From positions 3,672 through 67,671 of the IMG/VR virus record IMGVR_UViG_3300036770_004511: DNA of 64,000 nucleotides. One strand, written 5' to 3'. The position numbers and the translations under genes are program-made. Position 1 is the stretch's first letter. Each line of letters starts with the position of its first letter. The notes under the pieces are model-generated. The model was not told where the DNA came from. It saw only the letters and a program-made list of their open reading frames with translations, and did not search any database. Of the stretch, positions 902-61,341 are shown piece by piece. This DNA is from a virus.

Positions 902-3900
902 TTAATTAAAAGTAACCGTTCCGGTTCCGGCTGTAACTGTATATGTTCTATAGCCAACTTGACTAGTACTTGTTGTGACATTAGCTGTGATACCTGCTGA
1001 GAATGTGGCTGAATACTGTACAGGAACACGGAGAATTACAATGCCAGAACCACCTGTGCCACCGTTGCCATTACCGGAAGGATTTGATCCGCCACCACCA
1101 CCACCTCCACCGGTGTTTGTGGTTCCACTATCGCCGTTAGTATTGTTATTTTTGGCAGATCCGCCGCCACCTAACCCACCTAACCCGGCAGTTCCGCCAT
1201 TCCAGGATCCACCGCCTCCGCCGCCCGAATAAGTAATATTACTACCACTTATTGAACTATTTGCGCCTATACCCCCGTTGCCCCCAGTAGTGGTTGTGCC
1301 GGTTGTACCTATAGCTCCTGCTCCGCCGCCGCCGCCACTTCCATAATTAGGTCCTCCTGTTGCACTTGCGCCTCCGTTATTTCCCTGACTTGGTGCTGTG
1401 CTTGGTGTGTTTCCTGAACCACCTGCTGCAAGAGTGCTACCAGTTACTCCATCAGTTGTTCCGCCCCCACCAGACCCGCCAGGGCCCCCGGCATTTGCCG
1501 AACCGCTAGTAACTATTCCCCCTCCATACCCTCCGCCGGTAGAAGTAATAGATGAAAATACCGAATCGCTGCCTTTAGTTCCTACACTTGCTGTTCCACC
1601 GGCGCCACCTGCTCCTACAGTTAATGCATAGGAAATTCCTGTAGTAATAGATGTAGCTGTTCCAGTTAAGAATCCACCGCCACCGCCACCGCCACCTCGT
1701 TGGTATCCACCACCGCCTCCACCAGCAACCACCAAATAATCTACTGTAAGTGGTGGACTAGTTGTAAAAGAAATCAACCCTGTGCCTGCGTTGAATCTTG
1801 TGTATTTCTCTGCTGCGTTTATAGCAACAGTTTCTGCGGCGAGCCCGGTTCCTACGTTAATATAATAATTGTTTGAGTAGCGCAGAACGACTACTCCCGA
1901 CCCCCCCGACCCTCCTGCATGAGTCCCCGGATAAGTCTCAGCTGTGCCACCGCCCCCACCCCCTCCGGTGTTTGTACCGCCAGTACCGCCTGCTCTGGAT
2001 CCTGCTCCGCTACCAGCAGTTCCGGGACTGCCTGTGTTAAAACTATTGCCGCCGCCGGTGCCTACATTGTTATAGCCGGCGGCGCCACCACCACCACCTA
2101 GTCCACCATTTCCAGATTTTGCCGAGGTATAATGACCAGCACCACCGCCACCGCCTGCAAATGTCAGTGTTGTGCCTGTAATTGTGGTATTTGCCCCAGG
2201 CCCACCGTGCGGAAACGCTCCAGATGGATAACTAGAACTATCAGCACTTATACCCACACCACCGGCTCCACCGCCACCACCTCCATCTACTTTTAGGCCG
2301 CCGACATGATAACCAGAACCACCAGCATAGCCCTGAACAGGCGTAGTAGCAGGTGTATTACCGGCTCCCCCGGGTCCAGCTCCAGTTGTTCCATTATTAC
2401 CATTGCCGCCGCCTCCTGAACCACCTGATCCGCCTGCTGGATTACCCGGAGCATAAATTGCACCACCACCACCTCCAGCTGATGTAATCACATTAAAAGT
2501 GCTGTCACCGCCTTTTGTTCCCGCAGCAGCTACCACACCAGCGCCTCCGGCTCCTACAGTAACAGTGTAGGTTGTATTAAGTTGTATATTTCCTAATGTA
2601 CTATTTCTAAATCCGCCACCGCCGCCGCCACCGCCGCCGTGTGTGGCTCCACCACCTCCACCCCCGGCTACTACAAGATATTCAACAGAGATTGGTGGAG
2701 CTGAAGTAAACTTAACAGTCCCTGCTCCGGCAGTAAACTCAGTTATTCGAGTATTACCGGAAATAACCGAATTAGCAGTTAATCCTGCAGATACAACAGG
2801 GTAAAAATTAAGATTAGTCCTTACTATAACAATGCCGGATCCCCCGGCACCACCAGTAAAAGAATTAATTCCACCGCCCCCTCCGCCCCCTCCGGTGTTA
2901 GTTCCACCGGCACCACCAGTGGCCCCAGGGTTTCTAGCTGACCCACCGCCTACACCGGGTGCAGAAGTATTGAATCCGCCACCACCTCCACCGATTCCCC
3001 CAGCGCCGGCTTGTTTACTATTATGAGTAGCTCCTCCACCTCCACCTGCATAGTAAAAACCATCAAAGGCTAATCTCCCAGGGCCACCTGCACCGGCAAC
3101 CGAAGTGTTTGTTGCCGGTGATTCCCCTACACCGGCGGCTCCACCGCCGCCGGCACTGGGATGATCTGCAGCATTAACAAATCCAACTGACCCTCCAGCA
3201 TATCCTTGCCCGGCTGTGCCTGCGGCGCTGCCACCCGATGACCCTGAGTAAATCCATGTTGCTCCGCCACCAGACCCGCCGCTGGCAGAGTTCTGCCAGT
3301 TGTACGGCGATGAATAAGCACCAACAAGACCGCCGCCTTTGCCGCCACCCAGACTGGTAATCGACGCAAATGTGCTATTGGACCCGTTAGCCGAAGATCC
3401 AGTCGCGGCGCCAGCTCCTACCGAACACGGATAATCTGCTTCTAAATTTAATGAAAGACTTGATTCAGCAGCCGCGCCGCCACCACTTGTACCAAGACTT
3501 GTCCTAAATCCGCCAGCACCTCCGCCTCCACCTCCCCAGCTTCCCCCACATCCGCCACCAGCAACTACAAGATAGTCTACAGATAGAGTACCACCCCCAG
3601 TGGCGTCACCGGCAGTTTTATTAACCGCCATCCAACGTTGATAAGCAGAATCCCAGTACTCTACATTTAATGTAGAACTATTGTATCGGATTGCTCCCGA
3701 AGGTGGCACGGCCGGGCGTTGTGCTGTGGTGCCCGAGGGTAAGTCAAAGTATCCGGTACTATTGTTAATTTGGTCACTGACAGCAGTCACATTGCCGGCT
3801 GTACTGGCTGCTGATTTTGTCCAGGTACGCCCAGTCCAGATCCAAGTAACACCGGCATTGCTGTAAGTATCGTTGACATTGGGATTCGAGGGAAATGTTA

Positions 3901-3907
3901 ATGGCAT
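902..3907 (-). CDS. Virion fibre/appendage protein: FPSNP N-terminal module, GTTAQRP module and three tandem glycine-rich domains
   Basis: 1001 aa; MPLTFPSNP...WIWTGRTW; YFDLPSGTTAQRP; three units starting V(D/E)YLVVAGGG and ending GGSG(I/V)V(I/V)xR. Confidence 0.8.
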   Translation of the reverse strand: MPLTFPSNPNVNDTYSNAGVTWIWTGRTWTKSAASTAGNVTAVSDQINNSTGYFDLPSGTTAQRPAVPPSGAIRYNSSTLNVEYWDSAYQRWMAVNKTAGDATGGGTLSVDYLVVAGGGCGGSWGGGGGGAGGFRTSLGTSGGGAAAESSLSLNLEADYPCSVGAGAATGSSANGSNSTFASITSLGGGKGGGLVGAYSSPYNWQNSASGGSGGGATWIYSGSSGGSAAGTAGQGYAGGSVGFVNAADHPSAGGGGAAGVGESPATNTSVAGAGGPGRLAFDGFYYAGGGGGATHNSKQAGAGGIGGGGGGFNTSAPGVGGGSARNPGATGGAGGTNTGGGGGGGGINSFTGGAGGSGIVIVRTNLNFYPVVSAGLTANSVISGNTRITEFTAGAGTVKFTSAPPISVEYLVVAGGGGGGATHGGGGGGGGGFRNSTLGNIQLNTTYTVTVGAGGAGVVAAAGTKGGDSTFNVITSAGGGGGAIYAPGNPAGGSGGSGGGGNGNNGTTGAGPGGAGNTPATTPVQGYAGGSGYHVGGLKVDGGGGGGAGGVGISADSSSYPSGAFPHGGPGANTTITGTTLTFAGGGGGAGHYTSAKSGNGGLGGGGGAAGYNNVGTGGGNSFNTGSPGTAGSGAGSRAGGTGGTNTGGGGGGGTAETYPGTHAGGSGGSGVVVLRYSNNYYINVGTGLAAETVAINAAEKYTRFNAGTGLISFTTSPPLTVDYLVVAGGGGGGYQRGGGGGGGGFLTGTATSITTGISYALTVGAGGAGGTASVGTKGSDSVFSSITSTGGGYGGGIVTSGSANAGGPGGSGGGGTTDGVTGSTLAAGGSGNTPSTAPSQGNNGGASATGGPNYGSGGGGGAGAIGTTGTTTTGGNGGIGANSSISGSNITYSGGGGGGSWNGGTAGLGGLGGGGSAKNNNTNGDSGTTNTGGGGGGGGSNPSGNGNGGTGGSGIVILRVPVQYSATFSAGITANVTTSTSQVGYRTYTVTAGTGTVTFN

Positions 3908-22479: not shown

Positions 22480-25400
22480 TTACACCTTCACATAAGTTTT
22501 CTGTAACTTTACTACATTCCCGCTGCCTGCACCTGTGCCTAATAATCTGACTTGACCGCTTGATATATCTGTTGAAAAGGTCATTAATGCTGCTGCTCCT
22601 GTGTACACTGTGGCATAAGTAACCAATTGGGCCGTGGTTCCGTTGTGCACTATCATGGCTTCAGTGGCTTGATACTCTGTAGAATTGCTGATACTGATCA
22701 CATATTTGGCGGTTCTAATATTAGTTGTTCCAAATTGATCCAAAGCAATTGCTGAAGTATTTACTTGAATACCTGTAGGATCTGCCGTAATAGGATCAGT
22801 GCCTAATTGATTACTAAAACCTTGTACTACAATATCTGCGTTAGCATCAGGAACACCCGCAAAACTTAGTAGATTATCAGCAATAGTAAAATCTATGTCA
22901 GGTATTTGATAAACACTGTCAACAAAAACCACAACACTCCTACTAGAAACCAAACTAGTAGATAAAGAATAATTACTAGCTACACCGTTTCCAGTGAATC
23001 GATCCACAAAACCTGTGGTTAATATAACATTCCCAATGTTACCGGCAGTAGCAGTCACAGTAATTGTTACATTTGAACCTGATGTAGTGGCTTCTACCGC
23101 CGAACCAACAAAATTCAAACTGCTTATACTGCCAGCTACCAATGTTCCTTCATCGTAAACAGTAATATTAGCTGAAGTTCCAGCCGGCCCCGGTGCTCCG
23201 GTAGCGCCAGTGGATCCTATACCGGTGGCTCCTGTGGCACCTTCTGTACCAGGAGTACCCGGTGTCCCGGCTGAGCCTGATGATCCTGTGGCTCCGACAG
23301 GGCCAGTAGCCCCTGTACTGCCTTGTGGCCCTGCTATACCTGTGGCTCCTCCTGGTGTTCCTGGTGCTCCAGTGGCGCCTTGTGGGCCTGTAGCACCATA
23401 GGTATTGGTACTGCTTTGTACAATAATTTCGCTGTTTGTAACAGGAGCACTAGTAAATATAATCCACGAACTGTTGCTGGTAAAATTTGTACCAGGAATT
23501 TGATATATTCCATCAACAAAAGCAATTAGCTGATTAGTATTAGCTACATTAGCAGCAAGATCAAAAGCTACTTCTGCGCCTGTGCCAACAAATGTTCTTG
23601 TAAATGACTCAACTGGGCTGGCATTGTTTACTCCCGGAGTTCCTGGGGGGCCAATCGGGCCTGTACTACCAGTAGCTCCTGCTACACCAGGCGTGCCAAC
23701 TGAACCTGTTGCCCCAGTACTTCCTACTGTGCCCGGAGAACCCGGAGAACCCGGAGAACCTGTTACGCCTGTGGCACCTGTGGCGCCCGGGCCGCCTGCA
23801 GTTCCTGGAGTGCCTGGGGTTCCCGCTGCACCACTTGCTCCCACTGGACCAGTGGCACCAGTAGCTCCTGCTGTACCAGCTGAGCCAGGGTTGCCAGGGT
23901 TGCCGGCAGGACCCGTTGCACCGGTAGCCCCATTTAATCCAGCTCCACCAATAAATGGTGTTCCGTTACTGTAAAAATATTGACTAGCATATACTGCTAC
24001 ATTAGCTAAAAAGTTATTAGCTCTGATATTACCTTCGGTGTCTATGCCTCCGGCTACAATAAAATCGTTAGCAGTAAACAATGTACTACTGCCACCAACT
24101 TCAATCCAACCATTGGCCAGGTACACAGCTAGTTTACCATTGTCACTGTCTAGCCATAAGTCCCCTTCTTGTGGGTTCAACGGTGCTGTCGCGCTGACTG
24201 CTACCTGTGCTCCTCCAGTAGCATTACCACCACTGGCAGCAATTAGCGTACCACTATGTTGTACTGTGATTTCACTGTTGGCAACAGGAGGATTATAAAA
24301 ACTTATATAAGTGCTGTTGGCACTAAAATTCACACCTGGTATTTGATAGATACCGTCAATGTGAATTAGTAAGCTATTTTGACCAGCTATGTTTCCCGAA
24401 AGGACATAGTTTACATTGGTTCCATCAGCAGTAATATTCTGGCTAAACGGCCAGTACCAGCGACTTTCAAGATCAATAACCGGTGTAGTATTTTGTATTA
24501 TAATTTCTGCATTAGCAGCCGGAGCACCAACAAATGTAACATAGTCAGCGTTAGCTGTAAAATTAATACCAGGAAGTTGATATATACCATCAACATGCAC
24601 CACCAAACTATTACCACTGAAAGTGTTACTAGTCAGTGGATAATTAGTCTGTGCCCCAGTCCCTATACTTTGTTGAGTAAATGGTTGGAATCTTGCATCG
24701 TAAAAACTGCCCGGGTCACCTTTTATACCAGTAGCGCCTGTGGCACCTGCGCCTGTGGCTCCTGTTGCACCTATAGGACCATTGGCTCCGTCAGGACCGG
24801 CCGGTCCTTGTATACCAGTGGCACCTGTTGCACCACCGGGATCTCCTGGGCTGCCCGTAGGTCCTTGTATACCAGTGGCACCTGTTGCACCACCTGGGTC
24901 TCCTGTGTCACCTTTTTCACCTGCTATACCAGTGGCGCCGCGTGGACCAGTAGCGCCCGTTGATCCTGGGCCCCCGGGACCTCCTGCAGGACCTGTGGCT
25001 CCTGTGGCACCGCCGGGACTACCCGGACTTCCTGGATCCCCCGGTGTACCCGAAGGACCTGTGGCTCCTGTGGCGCCCGATCCTCCTGGACTTCCTGGAC
25101 TTCCTGGTTCACCAGGTATACCTGCTGGGCCTGTTGCTCCGCCAGGGTCTCCTGGAACACCAGCTGGGCCAGAAGCTCCTGTAGCTCCAGTGGCGCCTCC
25201 GGGATCTCCTTGATCCCCTTTAGGTCCAGTTGCGCCTGTGGATCCATCTATACCATCAGTGCCGTCGGCACCACTTGGGCCTGTTGCGCCTGTTGCACCT
25301 GTGGCTCCCAAATCACCTGGTGTACCAACTTCGCCCGGTTCACCCGGAGCACCGTCTGGTCCTGTTGCGCCTGTTGCACCGCCCGGATCGCCAGGTTCTC

Positions 25401-28400
25401 CTGCCACACCAGTTGCGCCTGTTGCACCACCGGGATCGCCGGTATCGCCTTTTGGTCCGGTAGCACCGGTAGCTCCACTCGCACCAATACCAGTTGCACC
25501 TTGGCTACCAGTAGCTCCCGGAGGTCCTTGGATACCAGTTGCACCCCCAGGTCCTGTTGCGCCTGTGGATCCAATCTCTCCATCGATACCAGTGGCACCG
25601 CGTGGTCCCGTGGCACCAGTAACACCTGTTGCGCCAATACCTGTTGCGCCTGTAGCACCATATGGTCCAGTGGCTCCGGTGCTGCCTGTTTGTCCTGTGT
25701 CGCCCTTGGCACCAGTTAAACCAATTGAGCCAGTAGCACCTGTGGATCCAATATTGCCTGTGATACCAGTAGCGCCTGTGGCACCAGGAAATCCTATATT
25801 TCCTTGAGCACCCGGAACTGCTGTACTAATATCTAACCAGAATGAATCAAATTGATTATTGACCCAAACATACAGTATATCATTGTCTGAGTTATACCAT
25901 AATGAACCAGTGACTGGGTTGATTGGGGCTGTAGAACTAACTGTAATTTCTGTAGGTCCAGTAGCACCTTGTATACCAGTCGCGCCTGTGGCACCAACGC
26001 CTGTAGCTCCTGTTGCACCTGTATCACCCTGCGGCCCAGTTGCACCTTGCGCTCCAGTGGCTCCTGTTGCACCCGACGGATCACCCGGGTCACCTTTAGC
26101 ACCAGTAGCTCCAGTTGCTCCAGAATCGCCCGGAGTTCCTGCCGTGCCCGGGTCTCCTGGAGTGCCACCAGGACCGGTAGCGCCAGTTGCGCCACCACCG
26201 CCAATGAAGGGCACACCATTGGCATACAAGAACGTTCCTGCCCTAACACTAGTGAATACAGCGTTCTCTACTGTACTAAATGTTATGCTTTGATATGGTA
26301 CTGCGTTAGCGTTACTGGTTATAACAATGTTATTTCCAGAGCGTATAGTAACATGGTCTAGCCCAACTGCTACTAACTGTTCACTGTTTTCTACTTCCCA
26401 GTATTTGAAAGTAGAATTCATAGCAACTAAAACATTACCGTTGCCTCTATCTCGTACTTCAAATCCCGATTCTTCATCAAATAACAAACTAGAAACTGTA
26501 GATACTGTAACATTAGGTTGTAAATTACCTATGTGCAGTGTACCAACAGTAAGAAATGTTGGTCCTGTGGCACCTGTAGCGCCACCAGGGTCACCCTGTG
26601 GTCCTGTGGCTCCTGTACTACCTGTAAATCCTGATGCACCAGTTGCACCATCTGGGCCTGCTGGACCAATTGGGCCTACTGGCCCTGTGCTACCAGTAGC
26701 ACCATTTACACCAGGAGTGCCCGGTAATCCGCTTGCGCCTGTGGCACCATCATTGCCCTGCGAACCAGGTGCGCCAGCTGGGCCCGTTGCACCCGTGGCA
26801 CCATTGACTCCGGGTGTACCTGGAATACCCGATGCACCTGTGGCACCTAATAGTCCTTCCCCTGGCGGTCCAGCAATACCTGTGGCGCCAGTGGCACCCA
26901 TTCCAGCATATTCACCAGGTAGACCTTGTGGACCAGTGGCTCCTGTGTTACCTGTGTCACCCGGTGGCCCTTGTATACCAGTTGCACCAGTGGCTCCATC
27001 TACACCGTCGGTGCCTGGCAGCCCTGATGCTCCAGTGGCCCCTGTACTACCTAAATTACCAATTGGACCTTGTATACCAGTTGCACCTGTGGCTCCAGTG
27101 ATACCCGGTGTACCTGGTAGTCCAGTAGCACCTTGATCTCCATCTACACCGCTAGGACCAACCGGCCCGGGTAGTCCTGTAGCACCTGTAGCACCATCTG
27201 CACCATTGCGTCCTGGTAATCCCGATGCTCCAGTAGCCCCTGTGCTACCTAAATCTCCAATTGGCCCTTGTATACCAGTAGCACCACTAGCACCTGTTAC
27301 ACCCGGTGTACCCGGTAAACCAGTGGCTCCTTGTTCTCCATCTTCGCCTCGTGGACCGACTGGTCCCGGTAATCCTGTAGCACCGGTGGCACCTTGGCCT
27401 GCGAACTCTCCTGGTAAACCTTGTGGACCAGTTGCTCCTGTGTCACCTTTATCCCCCGGAGGGCCGGCTATACCAGTAGCACCTGTAGCACCGTTTACCC
27501 CTGGAGTACCCGGTAATCCGCTTGCTCCTTGATCTCCAGTCTCGCCACGTGGTCCCACTGGCCCTTGTATACCAGTTGCGCCTGTAGCGCCATCAATACC
27601 AGGTAATCCTTGTAGACCAGACGCTCCTTGCTCGCCGGTATCACCTTTTGGTCCCACTGGGCCCGAAATACCTGTGGCTCCTGTAGCTCCTGCTGTGCCC
27701 GGGGCACCAGGAATACCACTAGCGCCTGTATCCCCTGTTTCACCTTGTGGGCCCACTGGCCCTTGTATACCAGTGGCACCGGTCGCTCCATCAATACCTG
27801 CTATGCCCTGTAGACCACTAGCGCCAGTGGCACCTTGTTCGCCTGCTGGGCCCACTGGCCCAGCTAATCCAGTTGCACCTGTAGATCCTACGGTACCAGC
27901 TGTACCCGGTAATCCTGTAGCTCCTTGTTCGCCAGTTTCACCACGTGGACCCACTGGACCTTGTATACCAGTCGCGCCTGTTGATCCATCAATCCCCGGC
28001 AATCCAGTTAAACCGGTGGCCCCTTGTTCGCCTGTTTCTCCGCGCGGCCCTACTGGTCCTTGTATACCAGTAGCGCCAGTTGATCCATCTAATCCTGCTG
28101 TGCCTTGAAAACCAGTGGCACCTTGTTCCCCTGTATCACCTTTGGCTCCCACAGGTCCTTGTATACCAGTTGCACCTGTACTACCTGTTATTCCTGGAGT
28201 TCCTGCTAACCCAGTAGCTCCTTGTTCCCCATCTATACCACGTGGTCCCACTGGCCCTTGTATACCAGTTGCGCCAGTAGCTCCGTCCAATCCTGCTGTG
28301 CCTTGTAGCCCGGTGGCACCCTGTTCTCCGGTATCACCTTTTGGACCTACTGGGCCCGAGATACCAGTGGCTCCTGTAGCACCATCTATTCCTGCTGTAC

Positions 28401-29826
28401 CTTGTAACCCACTTGCGCCTGTAGCACCCACCGAGCCTGCAGGGCCCACGGGCCCAGGTAAACCACTTGCACCAGTGGCGCCATCTATACCTGCTGTACC
28501 TGCAGGACCAGTTGCTCCAGTAGAACCCTGTATACCAGAGGGACCAATCGGTCCTGCTATACCTGTGGCACCTACTGTGCCCGGTGTTCCTGGAATTCCA
28601 AATCCGGTCGCACCTTGTTCTCCAGTGTCTCCTTTTGGTCCTACTGGGCCTGGCAGTCCGGTGGCACCAGTGGCTCCTACAGGACCTGTAGCCCCGGGTT
28701 CTCCTATACCAGTAGCACCTTGTTGCCCGGGTAGTCCAGGCGCACCTGCTATACCAGTGGCACCAGTTGAACCCAAATCTCCGGATGGCCCAGGAGTTCC
28801 TGCTATACCTGGTAATCCAGTGGCACCAACAGGACCAGCTATACCTTGAACACCAGCTGGACCGGTAGCACCTTGCGTTCCTGCAGGACCAACAGGACCA
28901 GCTACACCTGTAGCACCTGTAGCGCCTGTAATGCCCGGAACACCTTGACTACCGGTTGCTCCAACAGGGCCTGCAGGACCAGCCGGCCCAAGAGCACCGG
29001 TAGCTCCAATTGATCCTGTGGCTCCAATTACACCCTGCGGGCCTTGAGTGCCTGCGGTTCCTGGCGCACCAGTGGCCCCAGTTAATCCTGGTGCTCCAGT
29101 GGCACCTACACCGGTAAATGCCGCGCCGTTAGCATAAAATATACTGTCTGCGTAGATACTGCCGCCAGCATAGATATTTCCACCTACACCTAATCCGCCG
29201 TCGACAACTAATGCCCCAGTAGTAGGGCTAGTACTTACTGTGATATTACTTAGATATAAACTACCAGCTGATACTGCCGCAGCAGTGCCGGTCACTTGTC
29301 CACTGTCAACCGTGGCATTGGTTAAAAATATCAGTTCACCGGTGCTGTTATCCCAACCAATGAATGCACCCCGATCTGCACCATCCCTATAATAGTGCAT
29401 GAGCAGACCAAGATCTTGTCCATCATCGACAACAAGATCGGCTCCGCCCGGGCCTGTATGAATTTCAAATACACTAGTAGTTACTGTTTCATTACTGGTA
29501 TTAACAGTGGTGGTATTGCCTAAAACCACTAAATTACCGGTTACTACAACATCAACAGCAGCTAGATTGTTTAATGTACCAACCTGTGTGATTTGAGGCT
29601 GGCTTGGTGTCATTATGGTACCATAAATGGTACTTGAGGCTATATTTCCTGCATGTAAATTGCCTGTGATGCCTACGCCACCTTGAACACGCAATGTACC
29701 TGTATCTACATTGATACTGGCAATATTACCTGTTAAGGTTAGTGGAGTGCCTAGTACAGTGTGAGTAAGGTTACTGGTGCTGTCAAAATTACTCAGTACA
29801 ACCGGCTGTCGCAGGTACCTAATCAT
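22480..29826 (-). CDS. Giant collagen-like fibre/stalk protein (2448 aa)
   Basis: Very long Gly-X-Y regions; TGALVVDGGLGVGG beta repeats; four D(G/S)(I/V)YQxP domains; two APxxP-GxLW modules; C-terminal RTAKYVI...EYQATE domain. Confidence 0.85.
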   Translation of the reverse strand: MIRYLRQPVVLSNFDSTSNLTHTVLGTPLTLTGNIASINVDTGTLRVQGGVGITGNLHAGNIASSTIYGTIMTPSQPQITQVGTLNNLAAVDVVVTGNLVVLGNTTTVNTSNETVTTSVFEIHTGPGGADLVVDDGQDLGLLMHYYRDGADRGAFIGWDNSTGELIFLTNATVDSGQVTGTAAAVSAGSLYLSNITVSTSPTTGALVVDGGLGVGGNIYAGGSIYADSIFYANGAAFTGVGATGAPGLTGATGAPGTAGTQGPQGVIGATGSIGATGALGPAGPAGPVGATGSQGVPGITGATGATGVAGPVGPAGTQGATGPAGVQGIAGPVGATGLPGIAGTPGPSGDLGSTGATGIAGAPGLPGQQGATGIGEPGATGPVGATGATGLPGPVGPKGDTGEQGATGFGIPGTPGTVGATGIAGPIGPSGIQGSTGATGPAGTAGIDGATGASGLPGPVGPAGSVGATGASGLQGTAGIDGATGATGISGPVGPKGDTGEQGATGLQGTAGLDGATGATGIQGPVGPRGIDGEQGATGLAGTPGITGSTGATGIQGPVGAKGDTGEQGATGFQGTAGLDGSTGATGIQGPVGPRGETGEQGATGLTGLPGIDGSTGATGIQGPVGPRGETGEQGATGLPGTAGTVGSTGATGLAGPVGPAGEQGATGASGLQGIAGIDGATGATGIQGPVGPQGETGDTGASGIPGAPGTAGATGATGISGPVGPKGDTGEQGASGLQGLPGIDGATGATGIQGPVGPRGETGDQGASGLPGTPGVNGATGATGIAGPPGDKGDTGATGPQGLPGEFAGQGATGATGLPGPVGPRGEDGEQGATGLPGTPGVTGASGATGIQGPIGDLGSTGATGASGLPGRNGADGATGATGLPGPVGPSGVDGDQGATGLPGTPGITGATGATGIQGPIGNLGSTGATGASGLPGTDGVDGATGATGIQGPPGDTGNTGATGPQGLPGEYAGMGATGATGIAGPPGEGLLGATGASGIPGTPGVNGATGATGPAGAPGSQGNDGATGASGLPGTPGVNGATGSTGPVGPIGPAGPDGATGASGFTGSTGATGPQGDPGGATGATGPTFLTVGTLHIGNLQPNVTVSTVSSLLFDEESGFEVRDRGNGNVLVAMNSTFKYWEVENSEQLVAVGLDHVTIRSGNNIVITSNANAVPYQSITFSTVENAVFTSVRAGTFLYANGVPFIGGGGATGATGPGGTPGDPGTAGTPGDSGATGATGAKGDPGDPSGATGATGAQGATGPQGDTGATGATGVGATGATGIQGATGPTEITVSSTAPINPVTGSLWYNSDNDILYVWVNNQFDSFWLDISTAVPGAQGNIGFPGATGATGITGNIGSTGATGSIGLTGAKGDTGQTGSTGATGPYGATGATGIGATGVTGATGPRGATGIDGEIGSTGATGPGGATGIQGPPGATGSQGATGIGASGATGATGPKGDTGDPGGATGATGVAGEPGDPGGATGATGPDGAPGEPGEVGTPGDLGATGATGATGPSGADGTDGIDGSTGATGPKGDQGDPGGATGATGASGPAGVPGDPGGATGPAGIPGEPGSPGSPGGSGATGATGPSGTPGDPGSPGSPGGATGATGPAGGPGGPGSTGATGPRGATGIAGEKGDTGDPGGATGATGIQGPTGSPGDPGGATGATGIQGPAGPDGANGPIGATGATGAGATGATGIKGDPGSFYDARFQPFTQQSIGTGAQTNYPLTSNTFSGNSLVVHVDGIYQLPGINFTANADYVTFVGAPAANAEIIIQNTTPVIDLESRWYWPFSQNITADGTNVNYVLSGNIAGQNSLLIHIDGIYQIPGVNFSANSTYISFYNPPVANSEITVQHSGTLIAASGGNATGGAQVAVSATAPLNPQEGDLWLDSDNGKLAVYLANGWIEVGGSSTLFTANDFIVAGGIDTEGNIRANNFLANVAVYASQYFYSNGTPFIGGAGLNGATGATGPAGNPGNPGSAGTAGATGATGPVGASGAAGTPGTPGTAGGPGATGATGVTGSPGSPGSPGTVGSTGATGSVGTPGVAGATGSTGPIGPPGTPGVNNASPVESFTRTFVGTGAEVAFDLAANVANTNQLIAFVDGIYQIPGTNFTSNSSWIIFTSAPVTNSEIIVQSSTNTYGATGPQGATGAPGTPGGATGIAGPQGSTGATGPVGATGSSGSAGTPGTPGTEGATGATGIGSTGATGAPGPAGTSANITVYDEGTLVAGSISSLNFVGSAVEATTSGSNVTITVTATAGNIGNVILTTGFVDRFTGNGVASNYSLSTSLVSSRSVVVFVDSVYQIPDIDFTIADNLLSFAGVPDANADIVVQGFSNQLGTDPITADPTGIQVNTSAIALDQFGTTNIRTAKYVISISNSTEYQATEAMIVHNGTTAQLVTYATVYTGAAALMTFSTDISSGQVRLLGTGAGSGNVVKLQKTYVKV
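26900..28580. repeat. 99-bp (33-aa, 11-triplet) super-repeat within the collagen region, about 16-17 degenerate units
   Basis: Unit G(A/S)TGATGIQGPVGPRGETGEQGATGLxGxxGxD; tgtataccagt-type motif recurs at ~99-bp spacing (e.g. ~27962, 28061, 28160, 28259). Confidence 0.85.
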
Positions 29827-30253: not shown

Positions 30254-32806
30254 TTAAGCCAAACTCAAGGTAATTGCACACCAGCCTTCAGTGTAAGTTG
30301 TGGAGGTTATACCATTTGCAGTAGATCCAGGGAAATTAGTTTTGAATCCAGTACTGGTTATTCTAATATTAGCTGTTTGCCCGGCTGTGATCAGACCGGC
30401 ATGTACTGCTGCACGTCTAAGATCACTATCCGAAGTATATCCATATGTGTTATTGCCCCATACTTGAGCACCATTAACGGTGCCGGTTATTTGTGCTACG
30501 TTTCCTGAAATATTTTTAGCTCCGACTAATCCGACACCATCAAAGCTAGGAGGACAAACAAAAGTTCCATCGCCCTGTATACCATAAACCGGGGGAGGAG
30601 TAGGAACCGTGGTTGGGGTGGGAATAGGCAATGGAATCACACCACCTTTCCATAAATTAATATTATCTAGATAAAAGTTAGCACCAATCAATTGCCCGCC
30701 GCTGGCATCATAGCTACCAGCTATGAACACAAATCTATAACTACCTGCGTCACTGGATCCAATGGTATATTCCAAGGTTTGCCATCCTGTGTACAGCCCA
30801 AATTCATTTAATAATAGCACAGATTTACCGGTAGAGGGATTAATCAAATAAGCAAATACGTCATATTCATCATTGAACATTTCTGCACGCCAATTCATAA
30901 CAATCTTATCACCTGCTGCCACAATAAGATTTTGGTTACTAACAATATAAGGACCGCGTACTATGCCATAGGGTTGATTTACACTGCCTTCTTGGCGTAA
31001 TTTTAATACACGATTACCCAAAAATCCAGGAACGAAGCCACCGTCGGCTGCCCAAGAATATTGATAAGTTCCTGTTACTGCATCACCAAATGGGGCGGGA
31101 CTGTTTCCATGTACTGCTTTGGGATTATTAGGAGTTGGGAATCCGAATATGCTACTGGCCCCATTGGTACGTACACCTTCAAGATATATAGTCCAGCCTG
31201 GGTAAGTCACTGTGGTGCCGCTAGTGACCACCGGAGAATCAATTTCAAAGTCGCCATTGAAGAAGTAATCAATAGCGTCGGGCGGAATTGGCACCGGTAC
31301 AGGTATAGGAATAGGTGTGGGTATCGGTAGCGGAGTCAATGTATCAACAATTTCTACATTGGCTTCTAATGGACCATTTAGTAACTTTAATGTAAAAAAT
31401 TCTCTGCGCGACGACTCATTGACTCCGTCTATGCGCGGCGTGAATTCTACATTAGCGAAACCGTTGATCATTTGAAAGGTCCCACTGAGTATATTGGCTG
31501 GCTGCACAAAGTCTGAATCATCTACGCCTGGCGTTTTTATTATAATATAATCCCAGCTGGATCCATTGGGAATTCGGGGTTCGGTGGCACTGTCGTGTTG
31601 TAGAGTAAAACGTACACTATCGCCTTCAGCCACCCTGCCAGTATTGGCATAAAGTCTTAATGTAACATATACAATATCAATGCTGACTTGCACACTAGGA
31701 AATTCCTGTAACCTGACTGTAAAAGTTTCATCACGATCAGTGTCTATCATGATCTGCAACGGCAAGTCAGCATCGCAACGATTAGCGTCTGTGGTTACTG
31801 TATTCAGCTGCGGTAAAAAGATCCCTGTTAATAAATTATAATTAATTTCACTGGTAACAGTGGTACTCACTGTGGCATTGAAATCGCGACTATTGATTTT
31901 GTCTCCTACTATTTCAAAAAACACTTCACTATTAACTGGCACGCTGGTTGTATGCAAACTCACAGTAACATTGCCACCAACATACACCCGACTTTTATTA
32001 GAGGTCAAGCTATAGGTAATAGGTGGAGCATTACCATATACATCTACTGTGATAACTTTGGGTTCACCAATTTGCCCGGTTTGAGTAATTAGTGTATAGG
32101 TAAATGCGTCTGTGCCTTGAAACATTCTATAAGGCACATACAGTATACCTTGGCGGTCTTGGGTTAAACGTGCGTAACCCCACAGTGGCTGAGTTAGTAC
32201 TACCGGTTCTACTCGCTGTGCTTCTAATGCTCTACGACGTAATCGTTTGTTCCATTCCCCAGTGCCACTGATGCTGGCAGTGTCAGGGCTACCTCCAGCA
32301 AACCGTCCAGGATTATGAGGCAGTTCAACCCAGTCATAACTTTTATAATTATCAAACCTGAATACGGCTCCTCGCTTGGCTGGGTCACTGGTGCGTTCTG
32401 GTAATGGATCATATACAGTATCATAAATCACAGTTAGAGGAGCAATAATATCTCTATTAAATTCTATTACGCCGCCTGTCTTGGCCCAATTAGTTCCATC
32501 ACCAGTTCTATCACGGAGAAATCTAAATTCGGTCCAAGGTAGTCCAGGCCATGTTCTACTATTAAACCCGCCGTAGTTTATTATACGATATCCGCGATAG
32601 GGCCTAAATTCTTTTTCGTAAATTTCTAAAAAATGTATTGTTCGTATATCAAAATTAACAGGAATTTGATTACGATACGCACCCACAATGCGTCGTACAA
32701 TAGCACCACGTTGGGTATCTTCTAATGTGGTGATACGATTAGGCATAAAATGATAAATGTCCCTGGTTACAGGCACTATCACTCTATTGTTCTGTATCAA
32801 CAGCAC
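30254..32806 (-). CDS. Multidomain virion protein: Ig-like, Calx-beta-like, jelly-roll/CBM-like and C-terminal LCCL-like domains
   Basis: GTG start with GGAGGA SD inside the upstream gene; LYVP...GTDAFTYTL; VAEGDSVRF; FFNGDFE...FYLDNI; VWG...YTSDSDLRRAAVHAG...GSTANGITS. Confidence 0.75.
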   Translation of the reverse strand: MLLIQNNRVIVPVTRDIYHFMPNRITTLEDTQRGAIVRRIVGAYRNQIPVNFDIRTIHFLEIYEKEFRPYRGYRIINYGGFNSRTWPGLPWTEFRFLRDRTGDGTNWAKTGGVIEFNRDIIAPLTVIYDTVYDPLPERTSDPAKRGAVFRFDNYKSYDWVELPHNPGRFAGGSPDTASISGTGEWNKRLRRRALEAQRVEPVVLTQPLWGYARLTQDRQGILYVPYRMFQGTDAFTYTLITQTGQIGEPKVITVDVYGNAPPITYSLTSNKSRVYVGGNVTVSLHTTSVPVNSEVFFEIVGDKINSRDFNATVSTTVTSEINYNLLTGIFLPQLNTVTTDANRCDADLPLQIMIDTDRDETFTVRLQEFPSVQVSIDIVYVTLRLYANTGRVAEGDSVRFTLQHDSATEPRIPNGSSWDYIIIKTPGVDDSDFVQPANILSGTFQMINGFANVEFTPRIDGVNESSRREFFTLKLLNGPLEANVEIVDTLTPLPIPTPIPIPVPVPIPPDAIDYFFNGDFEIDSPVVTSGTTVTYPGWTIYLEGVRTNGASSIFGFPTPNNPKAVHGNSPAPFGDAVTGTYQYSWAADGGFVPGFLGNRVLKLRQEGSVNQPYGIVRGPYIVSNQNLIVAAGDKIVMNWRAEMFNDEYDVFAYLINPSTGKSVLLLNEFGLYTGWQTLEYTIGSSDAGSYRFVFIAGSYDASGGQLIGANFYLDNINLWKGGVIPLPIPTPTTVPTPPPVYGIQGDGTFVCPPSFDGVGLVGAKNISGNVAQITGTVNGAQVWGNNTYGYTSDSDLRRAAVHAGLITAGQTANIRITSTGFKTNFPGSTANGITSTTYTEGWCAITLSLA

Positions 32807-58534: not shown

Positions 58535-59380
58535 ATGGAAAACCAGCAGCCTAATCCGCTAAGTCGCTATTTTCGACAACCTGCTATATATCTTAAACTG
58601 CCCAGTGAAGGACAATGGTGGCAACCGGGCTCGTTAGATCTCCCAGATAATAAAGAGTTACCCATTTATCCCATGACTGCCAGGGACGAAATCATATTAA
58701 AAACACCTGACGCATTAATGAATGGGCAGGGCATGGTAGATGTTATACAAAGTTGTGTACCAAACATTAAAAACGCTTGGGCTTGCCCCAGTGTTGACCT
58801 AGACGCTATATTAATTGCTATACGCTTGGCTACCTATGGCAATAGCATGGATTTTGAAAGCACCTGCACTCAATGTAACAGCAAAAATCTGCATGGTATA
58901 AACCTAACAGAGCCCTTAAGTGCTATACAGTGCCCAGATTTTGGCAAGTACGTGCGCTACAAAGATCTTAACATACGCTTGAAGCCACAAAATTACAAAC
59001 AAATCAGTGAAGCAGGACAGATTACCTACGAAGAACAACGTATTAATAGTGCACTGATAGATCAAGAAATGCCAGAAGCAGAAAAAAATCGCATGCTGAC
59101 AGAAAGTATTAAACGATTAATAGATCTAGGTATACAGGCTTGCAGCAATAGCACAGAATATATCGAAACCAATGGTCAACATGTAACCGAACGTGAATTC
59201 ATTGACCAATTCTATAGCAATGCCGAAGCTGAAGTTATTAAGTTGCTACAAACTAGAAACGCAGAGATCACACAAGACAGTCGTATCCCGCCATTTAATC
59301 TACAGTGTGAAAGTTGTAATCAAACTTATCAAGCGGAACTAACATTTGATTATTCAAATTTTTTCGCGCAAGGCTTTTAA
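58535..59380 (+). CDS. T4 gp26-like baseplate hub / tail assembly chaperone
   Basis: Y.KLPS.G, YPMTARDE, DLDAILIAIRLATYG, two CxxC pairs (CTQC, CESC), ends ...NFF. Confidence 0.75.
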   Translation: MENQQPNPLSRYFRQPAIYLKLPSEGQWWQPGSLDLPDNKELPIYPMTARDEIILKTPDALMNGQGMVDVIQSCVPNIKNAWACPSVDLDAILIAIRLATYGNSMDFESTCTQCNSKNLHGINLTEPLSAIQCPDFGKYVRYKDLNIRLKPQNYKQISEAGQITYEEQRINSALIDQEMPEAEKNRMLTESIKRLIDLGIQACSNSTEYIETNGQHVTEREFIDQFYSNAEAEVIKLLQTRNAEITQDSRIPPFNLQCESCNQTYQAELTFDYSNFFAQGF

Positions 59381-59598
59381 CCTTTAAGACCGAAGCAGAG
59401 ATTATAGCTTTCTTAGATGGCTATGATCGTGAGGTAAAAGCCTTCAAAGAAGAATTACTGCGTATGTGTTGGTTTATGAGGGGTGGTGTCACCTACAGCG
59501 AAATTATGCAGATGAGTCAGCCAGAAAGAGAGATTATTGCTAACATTATCAAAAGCAATTTGGAAATTACTAAAGAATCTAAAGTTGCATTCTTTTAA
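59356..59598 (+). CDS. -1 frame extension of the gp26-like gene (gp51/'T'-like chaperone domain), likely made by programmed frameshifting
   Basis: Open -1 frame from the slippery site A AAT TTT: FRARLLTFKTEAEIIAFLDGYDREVKAFKEELLRMCWFMRGGVTYSEIMQMSQPEREIIANIIKSNLEITKESKVAFF*; not in the ORF track. Confidence 0.75.
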   Translation, partial: KFFRARLLTFKTEAEIIAFLDGYDREVKAFKEELLRMCWFMRGGVTYSEIMQMSQPEREIIANIIKSNLEITKESKVAFF

Positions 59599-59995
59599 GA
59601 TTTGCTTTCGCAAATCTATTTCTTTCGCTCTCGCTCAGAAATCTTTTTTTTTACTTTTGAAAGAAGGCATTCATCCAGATAATTCAGTCATAATTCGCCC
59701 GTTGCCGGGCGAAAAATAGAGATGCCTTCATCCGAGTGCATCAGCCACTGATTTTGGGAGAGTTGTTTTACAACAGGAGGCGGTTGACCTGTACCCCCAC
59801 TCTTGCCTTCGCGAATGTCAACGGAACCCTGGTCGCACCTATCAGCAGCACGATTTGGGCCTACGGTTGTTTCTTTTTCACAGAGCCGTAACCATTTGAG
59901 ACCTAAAGTTAGTTCTATCCTCGCAATGCCCAAGATCTGACGGTAAATGAATACAGCCTCAATGGGAGTCGAGCAGCCCCGACCAAACACTATTG
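59598..59995 (-). ncRNA. Candidate large structured non-coding RNA
   Basis: About 400 nt without a credible ORF; many helices with G-U pairs on the minus strand, a pseudoknot and a twice-repeated GGAUGAA (details in findings). Confidence 0.6.
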
Positions 59996-59999
59996 CATG

Positions 60000-60506
60000 T
60001 TAACGGCACAAGGCCGCGATGTTTTCTTTGTTTTTGTTAAGGAATTGTTCTAGATCGAATATTTGCCAGACTTGGTGTCTTGATCTGTAGGTAAATGAGC
60101 TAAGGGTTTGGTCCCAGTTTTGATTGTATGGTACTACTACGAATGTGCCTTTGCGTGTGAACTTCATGAACAGAATGTTAAAATCACCCTTGTCAGCTAC
60201 CTCTAACATCTGTTCAATCCATCCGTCTAATTGCTTACATGAGCCTGTGAATAATTGATGAAATGGAAAATCTGCGTAATTTTTTGCTTCAGCGTTCATA
60301 CGACCAAAACTGGGTCCTGGTACTATGTCGCCTTTGCTGTGCCTAATTTGAGCTTCTGATAAATTGTCTTTTCTTGCTGTGTTTTTACCACCAATGTAAG
60401 CACCAGAGTTAGTAACACGAATGAAACTTTCGCCAAACAAGTCTGTTAACCTCTTGGCTATGTCACGTTCGAAACTACTTCCTTTGTTCTTACTTTTTGA
60501 TGGCAT
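60000..60506 (-). CDS. Holliday junction resolvase-like PD-(D/E)XK nuclease
   Basis: SKNKGSSFERDIA, SGA..G, GDI, EAKNY motifs; TATAAGTA upstream (60516-60523). Confidence 0.75.
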   Translation of the reverse strand: MPSKSKNKGSSFERDIAKRLTDLFGESFIRVTNSGAYIGGKNTARKDNLSEAQIRHSKGDIVPGPSFGRMNAEAKNYADFPFHQLFTGSCKQLDGWIEQMLEVADKGDFNILFMKFTRKGTFVVVPYNQNWDQTLSSFTYRSRHQVWQIFDLEQFLNKNKENIAALCR

Positions 60507-60600: not shown

Positions 60601-61341
60601 CTAAACCTCTACTTTGATCCTACTCTTACATTTATCACCATGATACATGGTGTAATGATTTTTTGCGACCTTTTTCTCACAATGCTCACAAATCCTTTGA
60701 TTTTCTGGTTTACACATAGGATTATTTGAGCCTGAATTTTTTAGTTTACTCATTGCTTTGTTATACTCAGTTGCCGGCTTACCAAACATCCCATTCTTTT
60801 CGCCCTTGCAACCAACATTGGGGTTTCCTTTGAGGGCAGCAGAAATATTTTTGTTATGAGATTCTGGTCTAGCTTTTGCGTATTCTAAAACTCCTAAACT
60901 TTGATTTTTTCTTCTTTCCTCTGTATATTGTTTCCCGTAGTGCGGGCAAAGCTCTCCTCGTTTACCAAACATAGGATTTTTCTCTCCTTGCCTTGCAATA
61001 CTCTTTTTTTGTCTTGTTTCTGATGACTCTTTCCTGCCTAATCTATTTCCTGGATCCCAATATCCATTGCTTTCATTATAGCTCATGTGGTTAGATTTTG
61101 CGTTTAGAATAGTCAGATAAATTCTTTCTAATTCTCGTATTTCTAAAGGATCTCCGATATCCCAAATTTCATAAACCCAATCATTTCTATTTTCTGTTAT
61201 CAATGTTTTAACTAACAATTTAGAACATTTGTATTTTTCATGATTATTTGGGTGACATCCTTTAGATGATTTTGACCCTATATACCATTTTCCTGTAGAT
61301 ATTTGTGTCCATTTGTAAACATAAGCAAAGGTTGTAGACAT
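60601..61341 (-). mobile_element. Free-standing Seg-like GIY-YIG homing endonuclease with NUMOD3 repeats
   Basis: AYVYKW..STGKWYIGS; E.E..YN; RKESSETRQKKS, NPMFGK, HYGK, NGMFGK; C-terminal CEHC...HGDKC. Confidence 0.85.

What the first reader, a model, noticed from the sequence alone, without database searches (positions are those of the whole stretch)
59598..59995. ~400-nt pseudoknotted RNA candidate between the resolvase and tail chaperone genes
Seen on the minus strand, 5' to 3': hairpin GGUCG/CGACU; long helix CCAUUGAGGCU/GGUCUCAAAUGG; UACGG/CCGUA around an A-rich loop; GGCCC..UCGUGCU/GGUGCGA..GGGUU. Then GUUGAC (59817-59822) can pair with GUCAAC (59783-59788), which lies in the loop of GGGGU/GCCUC, giving a pseudoknot. 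GAGUG/CACUC closes a multiloop containing GUUGU/ACAAC and UCAG/CUGA. GAAGGCAU/AUGCCUUC encloses UUCGCCC/GGGCGAA. GGAUGAA occurs twice (59727-59733, 59670-59676), and a terminal AGAUUUGC-GAAA-GCAAAUCU hairpin ends it. Most wobble pairs work on the minus strand. This is the largest non-coding gap in an otherwise densely packed window. I do not recognise it as tmRNA, RNase P or a group I/II intron. Inference: an uncharacterised large phage ncRNA or ribozyme, or a structured replication or packaging element.
Basis: partly seen in the sequence, partly recalled or inferred. Interest (0 to 1): 0.8.

Follow-up and report, generated by a model that had tools for sequence, protein, structure and literature searches.

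The report
New large pseudoknotted jumbo-phage RNA
The 400-base gap encodes no protein but an intricately folded RNA that sits at the same spot in more than a hundred uncultivated giant phages and matches no catalogued RNA family, so what it does is an open and testable question.

Summary
The finding is real. Window 59598-59996 (minus strand) belongs to a large family of structured RNAs that I could not find described anywhere. I collected 112 distinct full-length copies (67 clusters at 90% identity) from IMG/VR viral contigs. They fall into two architectural types (A, as in the window; B). All lie between a resolvase-like PDDEXK gene and a convergent baseplate-hub operon.

Base-pair counts beat both controls. 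A-type: 79.0% of cells paired against 70.3% shuffled. B-type: 90.3% against 78.3%. In both, 0 of 500 shuffles reached the observed value. B-type has four pseudoknots.

The 100-aa ORF is open only in the window (1 of 12). G.U pairs outnumber A.C pairs 226 to 88, which places the RNA on the minus strand. Rfam 15 gives no match. There is also no match in 50,697 deposited phage genomes, and none beyond chance in 185,579 prokaryote genomes.

Corrections:
- One claimed closing helix is wrong.
- Part of the "long helix" is really a pseudoknot.
- The last two hairpins look like terminators of the opposing operon.
- The neighbour is a baseplate hub gene, not a tail chaperone gene.

Function is unknown. 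My best guess is a trans-acting RNP scaffold or ribozyme.

The parts
59598..59996 (-). Whole conserved non-coding element: A-type member of the RNA family plus its 3' hairpin module
   Evidence: blastn and nhmmer matches cover query positions 1-416 in 11 close relatives. Alignments A1 and A3. Present once in the 67,671-bp record.
59663..59984 (-). Folded core of the RNA, from the first hairpin to the end of the second GGAUGA domain
   Evidence: Structure counts. GC is 0.50-0.515 here against 0.32-0.40 in the flanks.
59967..59984 (-). Hairpin 1 (GGUCGGG / CUCGACU)
   Evidence: helix 1. The segment folds better than shuffles in 66 of 66 distinct versions.
59929..59966 (-). Pseudoknot 1: CCCA (59966-59963) pairs with UGGG (59932-59929). 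It crosses the UUGAGGCU helix.
   Evidence: helix 2: 100% paired, 3 of 4 pairs compensatory. Anchor test: 99 of 100 copies fully paired, in 7 different complementary combinations.
59895..59962 (-). Long-range helix UUGAGGCU (59962-59955) with GGUCUC-AA (59903-59895), enclosing a variable hairpin (59954-59943) and the conserved GAUCU
   Evidence: helices 3-5. The variable hairpin folds better than shuffles in 55 of 60 distinct versions.
59862..59890 (-). Hairpin UACGG...CCGUA with the conserved A-rich loop
   Evidence: helices 6 and 7: 92% and 100% paired, with compensatory changes.
59825..59861 (-). Variable hairpin GGCCC..UCGUGCU / GGUGCGA..GGGUU
   Evidence: columns 156/174 are CG:6 UA:6 among close relatives. 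Only 54-70% paired by column in the wider set.
59783..59822 (-).
   Evidence: helix 10: 100% paired, 2 pairs compensatory. Across both types the fifth pair is A-U, C-G or U-A in 110 of 112 copies.
59759..59803 (-). Closing helix AGAG (59803-59800) / CUCU (59762-59759) around the pseudoknotted hairpin and a variable hairpin.
   Evidence: Read by eye from A3: also UGGG/CCCA, GGAG/CUCC, GAAG/CUUC, UGAG/CUCA, GAGU/ACUC. The B-type equivalent is 98.1% paired with 4 of 4 pairs compensatory (helix 14).
59663..59733 (-). 3' domain: two GGAUGA motifs (59733-59728, 59676-59671), hairpin UUCGCCC/GGGCGAA (59713-59694), and helix GAAGGCAU/AUGCCUUC
   Evidence: GGAUGA is nearly invariant. The hairpin is 85% paired with CG:7/UA:7. 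The outer helix is only 50.3% paired by column.
59643..59662 (-). A-rich spacer, variable in length (a T run on the plus strand)
   Evidence: Alignments A1, A3 and A4.
59598..59642 (.). Two tandem hairpins: 59642-59618, whose loop carries the conserved GAGCG..AGCGAA motif, and 59617-59598. They probably act as intrinsic terminators of the plus-strand hub operon and mark the 3' limit of the RNA.
   Evidence: Terminator scan, plus strand, 59598-59617. T9 follows the second hairpin on the plus strand. Paired 95.8% and 100%, with 6 of 6 and 6 of 8 pairs compensatory.
60000..60506 (-). Upstream gene on the same strand: resolvase-like PDDEXK endonuclease
   Evidence: Pfam PDDEXK_15, 1.1e-25. phrog_244. 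Directly upstream in 88 of 93 copies that have enough flank.
58535..59598 (+). Convergent operon: baseplate-hub homologue (58535-59380) and a conserved small ORF (59377-59598)
   Evidence: Pfam T4_baseplate, 1.6e-13. phrog_150. Hub present in 97 of 97 copies and small ORF in 109 of 110 copies that have enough flank.
59688..59990 (-). Chance 100-aa ORF inside the RNA; not a gene
   Evidence: Open in 1 of 12 close homologues. The other 11 carry 4-7 stops. Variable columns by codon position are 33/26/28. No Pfam family.

Best explanation
Window 59598-59996 (minus strand) encodes an A-type member of a structured RNA family of about 380-420 nt with several pseudoknots. I found no description of this family. 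It belongs to one lineage of uncultivated phages. These are probably jumbo phages: the window's record is rated 19% complete at 68 kb, and related contigs reach 364 kb.

Shown:
- It is not translated.
- Its helices, including long-range pseudoknots, are kept by compensatory changes.
- The pairing works only on the minus strand.
- It always lies directly after the sbcD-sbcC-resolvase gene string and faces the end of a baseplate-hub operon.

Inferred:
- It is made by read-through of the resolvase transcript.
- The two tandem hairpins, which also terminate the opposing operon, bound it at the 3' end.
- It then acts as a folded RNA.

My odds for how it acts:
- About 0.45 that it acts in trans as a stable RNA-protein or RNA-only particle.
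- About 0.2 that it is catalytic.
- About 0.2 that it acts only in cis. That case is listed as a rival.

The confidence given is for 'a real, new, functional structured RNA that acts as RNA'.
For: Homologues:
- 33 syntenic loci, then 63 and at least 120 motif hits in IMG/VR.
- 189 loci match one of two nhmmer profiles at 100 bits or more. These give 166 full-length copies, 112 distinct sequences and 67 clusters at 90% identity.

Structure:
- A3, 20 sequences: 79.0% of cells paired against 70.3% shuffled. Covariation score 0.295 against 0.143 (0 of 500 shuffles reach it). Slid controls are 0.110 or less.
- A4, 42 sequences: 90.3% against 78.3%. Covariation score 0.368 against 0.158 (0 of 500). 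Slid controls are 0.079 or less. 63 of 97 pairs show compensatory changes.
- B-type pseudoknots: CUCC/GGAG is 100% paired. UACCG/CGGUA is 97.6% paired (UA:21 CG:12 UG:4 other:5). The hairpin-loop helix UUGUCU/AGACAA is 100% paired with 5 of 6 pairs compensatory.
- GUUGC/GCAAC is invariant within B-type but covaries between the two types.
- Variable hairpins fold better than shuffles: mean z -3.0, -2.1 and -1.5.

Strand: 226 G.U cells against 88 A.C cells overall, and 132 against 19 in the well-supported helices.

Non-coding.

Context: PDDEXK upstream in 88 of 93 copies, small ORF in 109 of 110, hub in 97 of 97, sbcC in 63 of 63.

Expression (weak): contigs from 4 of 4 metatranscriptome runs laid, from 4 studies, bridge the resolvase stop codon into the 5' part of the RNA.

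Not a known family:
- Rfam gave 0 hits at gathering score in the window.
- The hits at E up to 10 were all far below gathering score.
- Rfam gave 0 hits at E up to 0.1 in 15 loci.
- The same tool scored a true RNase P at 318 bits.
Against: - The window sequence alone is not unusually stable (z -1.28; 10 of 100 shuffles fold as well).
- The shuffle control ignores relatedness, and A4's structure was drawn from one of its own rows, which favours it over the slid versions.
- Several 3'-domain helices are poorly supported by column.
- Transcription rests on contigs only. These show no strand, ends or abundance, and RNA libraries can carry DNA.
- No tool result bears on trans action, protein partners or catalysis.
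- The fixed position at a convergent junction would also suit a purely cis-acting element.
- The two 3' hairpins are explained well enough as terminators.
- Pieces of this RNA may already be listed among the 10,006 candidates of PMC10690425.
Confidence: 0.62

Rival explanations
1. A purely cis-acting 3' untranslated element. A large folded block at the end of the sbcDC-resolvase transcript would stabilise that mRNA, or insulate the two converging transcription units from each other, and would have no role away from its own transcript.
For: It always sits at a convergent junction directly after the resolvase stop codon. Metatranscriptome contigs run from the gene into it. No sigma-70-like promoter was found on the minus strand. 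The adjoining hairpins are terminator-like.
Against: Simple hairpins are enough for 3' protection or termination. This element instead keeps about 320 nt with up to four pseudoknots and long invariant unpaired stretches across copies whose helices have diverged freely. Relatives with the same gene order manage with an unrelated gap or with small ORFs.
Confidence: 0.2
2. An RNA partner (guide or scaffold) of the adjacent PDDEXK nuclease, by analogy with nuclease genes that carry their structured RNA next to them.
For: It lies on the same strand immediately downstream of a small nuclease gene in 88 of 93 copies. Its size and pseudoknotted build resemble such scaffold RNAs (that comparison is recalled, not tested).
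Against: The same nuclease family occurs without this RNA in PA5oct, SCTP-2, Phosso, Campylobacter phages and the group C relatives. Five of 93 copies lack a detectable PDDEXK gene upstream. No hypervariable guide-like segment is seen; the only variable stretch is an A-rich spacer. The gene order as a whole is conserved, so adjacency may be no more than synteny.
Confidence: 0.05
3. A remnant or ORF-less form of a self-splicing intron (group I or II) or other mobile ribozyme.
For: Its size and pseudoknotted core fit. Homing endonuclease genes are common in this region: a GIY-YIG gene lies at 60601-61341.
Against: No Rfam intron model matches, even at E up to 10. The element does not interrupt a gene: the resolvase ORF ends with its own stop, and the next gene is on the other strand. 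It is present once per genome at one fixed site, with no sign of mobility.
Confidence: 0.04
4. A DNA-level element, such as a replication origin or a packaging site, whose hairpins form in DNA.
For: It is the largest gene-free stretch, with raised GC, and it lies at the junction of two gene modules.
Against: The helices rely on G.U pairs on the minus strand, which are A.C mismatches on the plus strand: 226 against 88 cells, and 132 against 19 in the best helices. Long-range pseudoknots are kept by compensatory change. There are no iterons or direct repeats, and there is only one copy.
Confidence: 0.03
5. A protein-coding gene: the 100-aa ORF at 59688-59990.
For: The frame is open in the window.
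Against: It is open in only 1 of 12 close homologues; the others have 4-7 stops. The length differs by a non-multiple of three in 7 of 11. Variable columns by codon position are 33/26/28, so there is no third-position excess. It has no Pfam family.
Confidence: 0.01

Closest known systems
ROOL and GOLLD: large ornate RNAs of phages and prophages. Listing and abstract of PMC12286853 seen; that Rfam holds models of them is recalled.
   Same: They are phage-borne, several hundred nucleotides long, elaborately folded, and discovered by comparative genomics. They have no known function and are non-coding.
   Different: No match to any Rfam model. This RNA is smaller, about 400 nt. It sits at one fixed position after a resolvase gene rather than near tRNA genes (that detail is recalled). 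Oligomerisation is untested.
Bacterial RNase P RNA
   Same: Similar size and a pseudoknotted core. In B-type copies, a 5-bp long-range helix (UACCG/CGGUA) is preceded by GGAA on one strand and ACAG(A/G)G on the other. This recalls GGAAAGTCCGAG and ACAGAACTCGGCTTA of the true RNase P in L221.
   Different: No covariance-model match, whereas the control scored 318 bits. Only three hairpins lie between the two strands. No helices equivalent to P1-P3 or a specificity domain are evident to me (that architecture is recalled, not tested). A-type copies, including the window, lack the 5' strand altogether. I read the resemblance as chance.
Structured RNAs encoded beside small nucleases (the omega-RNA type; recalled)
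   Same: A structured, pseudoknotted RNA lies directly beside a small nuclease gene on the same strand.
   Different: The nuclease family occurs widely without the RNA. There is no guide-like variable end. There is no transposon context.
Intrinsic terminators
   Same: The two 3' hairpins, with T runs on the plus strand, fit the pattern.
   Different: They account for only 59598-59642. Their loop motif (GAGCG..AGCGAA) is conserved far beyond what termination needs. The 320-nt core has nothing to do with termination.

Membership tests
Any Rfam 15 family (4227 models) | Score at or above the family's gathering threshold | tested here: not met
   0 matches in the 64-kb window. 5 and 2 sub-threshold matches at E up to 10, the best 18.4 bits against a gathering score of 228.9. 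0 matches at E up to 0.1 in 15 loci totalling 48,220 bases.
Bacterial RNase P RNA | Covariance-model match | tested here: not met
   No hit. The same tool scored a real RNase P at 318 bits.
Bacterial RNase P RNA | P4-type pseudoknot set within the canonical order of helices and domains | tested here: not met
   A superficially similar 5-bp helix exists in B-type (helix 7; compare). Only three hairpins separate its strands, and A-type lacks it. The canonical order is recalled.
Group I intron | Covariance-model match | tested here: not met
Group I intron | Interrupts a gene whose exons join into an intact product | tested here: not met
   The resolvase ORF ends at its own stop codon (60000-60002), and the next gene is on the other strand.
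Group I intron | Crossing P3/P7 pseudoknot with a guanosine-binding site | tested here: inconclusive
   The two central long-range helices of B-type are nested within each other, not crossing. The intron topology itself is recalled, not tested.
Group II intron | Domain V/VI model match, and usually an intron-encoded protein | tested here: not met
   No model match. No conserved ORF inside the element.
tmRNA / tRNA | tRNA-like domain found by ARAGORN or a covariance model | tested here: not met
   0 genes in the window. No Rfam match.
GOLLD, ROOL, OLE, raiA, HEARO (large bacterial and phage ncRNAs) | Covariance-model match. That these are in Rfam is recalled. | tested here: not met
Intrinsic terminator (for 59598-59642 only) | G+C-containing hairpin followed by a T run | tested here: met
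   Plus strand, 59598-59617 followed by ATTTCTTTCG. The second hairpin is followed by T9 on the plus strand (read). On the minus strand no U run follows.
Protein-coding gene (ORF 59688-59990) | The frame is kept open in relatives, and changes concentrate at third codon positions | tested here: not met
   Open in 1 of 12. Variable columns by codon position are 33/26/28.
Candidate structured RNAs of Fremin et al. 2023 (PMC10690425) | Listed in that paper's supplementary tables | not testable with these tools
   I saw the outline and passages. The supplements are closed. The main text names no motif downstream of a resolvase gene or near a baseplate gene.

The most novel reading that the evidence does not exclude
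This is a new class of large catalytic or particle-forming RNA specific to a lineage of jumbo phages. It would be a ribozyme or RNA-based machine with its own fold of up to four pseudoknots, unrelated to RNase P, introns or the known ornate RNAs, and made during infection alongside the recombination and repair genes.
Probability: 0.2. Interest if true: 0.92.

Novelty: categorically new. Interest (0 to 1): 0.72.

Why it matters
Large RNAs with intricate, conserved tertiary architecture are rare. Those whose functions are known are mostly ribozymes or cores of RNA-protein machines. This family has at least 112 distinct members and a fold supported by many compensatory changes. It matched nothing in Rfam 15, in 50,697 deposited phage genomes, or (beyond chance) in 185,579 prokaryote genomes.

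It gives a defined object for structure work and biochemistry: self-cleavage assays, cryo-EM and partner pull-downs. It also points to an unexplored RNA layer in jumbo-phage biology. The two architectural types, A and B, share a core but swap peripheral elements. That offers a natural experiment on which parts are essential.

One caveat: the general category of large phage RNAs of unknown function already exists. Fragments of this RNA may also sit unnamed in a published catalogue whose tables I could not open.

Tried and rejected
- **Single-sequence folding.** It is uninformative (z -1.28 and -1.00).
- **blastn against deposited phages.** No match with an A-type query or a B-type query.
- **nhmmer on three cultured jumbo phages** (SCTP-2, PA5oct, Phosso). 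Nothing was found at their resolvase loci.
- **Covariance model R1 of the B-type core**.
  - It found no credible match in those three whole genomes. The best hit, 23.7 bits in PA5oct, lies inside a ribonucleotide reductase gene.
  - It did not detect A-type copies or group C loci either. The types are therefore too far apart for that partial model, and absences at this distance mean little.
- **PA5oct's four published ncRNAs.** They lie at other coordinates (passages of PMC7318152).
- **Motif scans of 185,579 prokaryote genomes.** They gave 10 and 1 hits. My arithmetic for uniform base composition expects about 9 and 0.3 by chance. None extends beyond the motif, and one lies inside a 23S rRNA gene.
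- **Free search for the A-type closing helix.** It does not discriminate from shuffles, so that helix rests on my reading of fixed positions in A3 and on the B-type counterpart.
- **RNase P resemblance.** Considered and rejected.
- **Metatranscriptome cover.** No laid contig covered 59400-59770. This is no evidence of absence.
- **Group C relatives** (same gene order, unrelated 510-nt gap). Only two sequence variants exist, so covariation could not be tested. More distant relatives carry small ORFs there instead.
- **Literature.** Four full-text searches found no description. The Minerva preprint concerns other RNAs (passages).
- **Alignment caveat.** MAFFT column counts understate the variable hairpins. 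No structure-aware alignment of the full length was possible, because of the model size limit.
Full report
**What is at the locus.** The stretch 59599-59999 is a convergent gap. On the plus strand, a baseplate-hub homologue (58535-59380; Pfam T4_baseplate 1.6e-13, phrog_150) and a small ORF end at 59598. On the minus strand, a resolvase-like PDDEXK endonuclease (60000-60506; PDDEXK_15 1.1e-25, phrog_244) ends at 60000. Further upstream on the minus strand lie a GIY-YIG/NUMOD3 homing endonuclease, sbcC and sbcD.

GC rises to 0.50-0.515 inside the gap, against 0.32-0.40 beside it. The window lies in a 67,671-bp viral record rated 19% complete, and the element occurs once in it.

**Known families.**
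- Rfam 15 gave no match at gathering score in the whole window.
- At E up to 10 around the gap it gave only five matches far below threshold.
- It gave nothing at E up to 0.1 in 15 related loci, and two far-sub-threshold matches on a B-type copy.
- The same tool scored a true RNase P RNA at 318 bits, and rRNAs, in unrelated loci. So the negatives are meaningful for described families.
- ARAGORN found no tRNA or tmRNA.
- The single sequence is not unusually stable (z -1.28 minus strand, -1.00 plus strand). Any case has to rest on relatives.

**Relatives.**
- Searching IMG/VR with the resolvase protein gave 33 syntenic loci. Eleven carry a full-length copy of the gap at 84-93% identity, and one carries a copy at 67%.
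- More distant loci keep the gene order and a 400-1100-nt gap. An alignment showed that these gaps share ordered sequence blocks with the window.
- Of the 217 loci then held, 189 matched one of two nhmmer profiles at 100 bits or more. Of these, 166 were full length. They comprise 112 distinct sequences (36 A-type like the window, 76 B-type) in 67 clusters at 90% identity.
- Host contigs reach 364 kb.

**Not coding.** The 100-aa ORF (59688-59990) is open in 1 of 12 close homologues. The other 11 have 4-7 stops, and 7 of those 11 differ in length by a non-multiple of three. Variable columns are spread 33/26/28 over the three codon positions. It has no Pfam family.

**Structure, A-type.**
- 79.0% of cells pair, against 70.3% in shuffles.
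- 52 pairs show compensatory changes, against 33.3 in shuffles.
- The covariation score is 0.295, against 0.143 in shuffles (0 of 500 reach it).
- Sliding the partners by 1-3 columns gives at most 0.110.
- Over all 112 copies, the fifth pair of this pseudoknot is A-U, C-G or U-A in 110.
- A second pseudoknot, CCCA/UGGG, is 100% paired. Over the family, 99 of 100 scorable copies are fully complementary, in seven different combinations.
Reading fixed positions in A3, the closure is AGAG/CUCU. Variants are UGGG/CCCA, GGAG/CUCC, GAAG/CUUC, UGAG/CUCA and GAGU/ACUC.
- A free computational search for this helix did not beat shuffles. It therefore rests on that reading and on its B-type counterpart.

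**Structure, B-type.** On 42 sequences (A4), 19 helices drawn from one member gave these counts.
- 90.3% of cells pair, against 78.3% in shuffles.
- The covariation score is 0.368, against 0.158 in shuffles (0 of 500 reach it). Slid versions give 0.079 or less.
- 63 of 97 pairs show compensatory changes.
- There are four pseudoknots:
  - CUCC/GGAG: 100% paired.
  - UACCG/CGGUA, across about 130 nt: 97.6% paired, with the variable pair UA:21 CG:12 UG:4 other:5.
  - The loop of a hairpin with a strand about 120 nt downstream: 100% paired, 5 of 6 pairs compensatory.
  - GUUGC/GCAAC: invariant within B-type, but covarying between the two types.
- Hairpins whose sequence varies too much to align still fold better than shuffles. 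This holds in 66 of 66, 78 of 85 and 55 of 60 distinct versions (mean z -3.0, -2.1 and -1.5).

Two caveats apply. The shuffle control ignores relatedness. The A4 structure came from one of its own rows.

**Strand.** In the tested helices, G.U cells outnumber A.C cells 226 to 88. In the well-supported helices the ratio is 132 to 19. The structure therefore exists on the window's minus strand as RNA, not as a symmetric DNA element.

**Context.**
- The resolvase-like gene lies directly upstream on the same strand in 88 of 93 copies with enough flank.
- sbcC lies upstream in 63 of 63.
- The small ORF lies downstream on the other strand in 109 of 110, and the hub gene in 97 of 97.
- The last hairpin (59598-59617) fits an intrinsic terminator for the plus strand. 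The one before it is followed by T9 on that strand. On the minus strand no U run follows.
- I therefore read 59598-59642 as the terminators of the hub operon, which also bound the RNA. Their loop motif is nevertheless conserved far more than termination requires. It recurs in phage Phosso in an unannotated 1-kb gap.

**Expression.** Contigs from 4 of 4 metatranscriptome runs laid (four studies; aquatic, freshwater or riverine by their labels) bridge the resolvase stop codon into the 5' part of the RNA at 85-99% likeness. This suggests read-through transcription. Contigs show neither strand nor ends, and such libraries can hold DNA.

**Distribution.**
- No deposited phage genome matches by blastn.
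- The nearest cultured relatives by the resolvase protein are jumbo phages: SCTP-2 49%, PA5oct 54% over 73% of the query, and Phosso 41%. None shows the RNA by nhmmer or by a partial covariance model.
- Motif hits in 185,579 prokaryote genomes are at chance level and do not extend beyond the motif.
- Relatives with the same gene order carry an unrelated hairpin-rich gap. More distant relatives carry small ORFs there.

**What it is like.** The closest known things are the large ornate phage RNAs ROOL and GOLLD, in kind but not in sequence. A B-type resemblance to the P4 strands of RNase P does not survive the model search or the comparison of architecture.

Four literature searches found no description. 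The IMG/VR catalogue of 10,006 candidates (PMC10690425; outline and passages read) may contain fragments of it in tables I could not open.

**Verdict.** This is a real structured RNA family with several pseudoknots, carried by jumbo phages, and I could find no description of it. Its function is unknown. I put about 0.45 on a trans-acting particle, 0.2 on catalysis, and 0.2 on a purely cis role.

Noticed in passing
window 59377-59598 (+): The small ORF after the hub gene is homologous over about 73 codons to ORFs in other loci. In the window, however, the first ATG/GTG/TTG is at 59464 (44 aa). The conserved first 29 codons have no canonical start and lie in the -1 frame across the hub stop codon. 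This could be a non-canonical start, translational coupling or a frameshift.
   Followed up: partly
window 60601-61341 (-): A GIY-YIG/NUMOD3 homing endonuclease sits between sbcC and the resolvase-like gene. It is there in the window and in L019, L146 and L118, but not in most relatives, so it is a presence/absence polymorphism.
   Followed up: partly
L021-L029 and L237-L244, about 510 nt after the resolvase gene: These relatives have the same gene order but carry an unrelated, hairpin-rich non-coding gap instead of this RNA. Only two sequence variants are available, so covariation could not be tested. L247 has a weak A-type match (E 3.6e-6).
   Followed up: partly
A4 columns 1-16, e.g. L012:4573-4590: A subset of B-type copies has a conserved leader, ACACAGAACCCU, directly after the resolvase stop codon. 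It repeats the 3' strand of a downstream hairpin but does not covary with that hairpin's 5' strand.
   Followed up: partly
L220 (Sinorhizobium phage Phosso), about 2750-2830: The same two-hairpin module, with the loop motif GAGCGAAUAGCGAAG, lies in a 1-kb unannotated, GC-rich gap upstream of that phage's resolvase gene. The RNA core has no detectable match there.
   Followed up: no
window 22480-29826 (-), 902-3907 (-), 30254-32806 (-): A 2448-aa protein carries collagen triple-helix repeats (Pfam 6.7e-173). A 1001-aa protein has a Gly_rich_2 domain, and an 850-aa protein has an LCCL domain. The 2597-aa and 1158-aa neighbours have no Pfam family.
   Followed up: no
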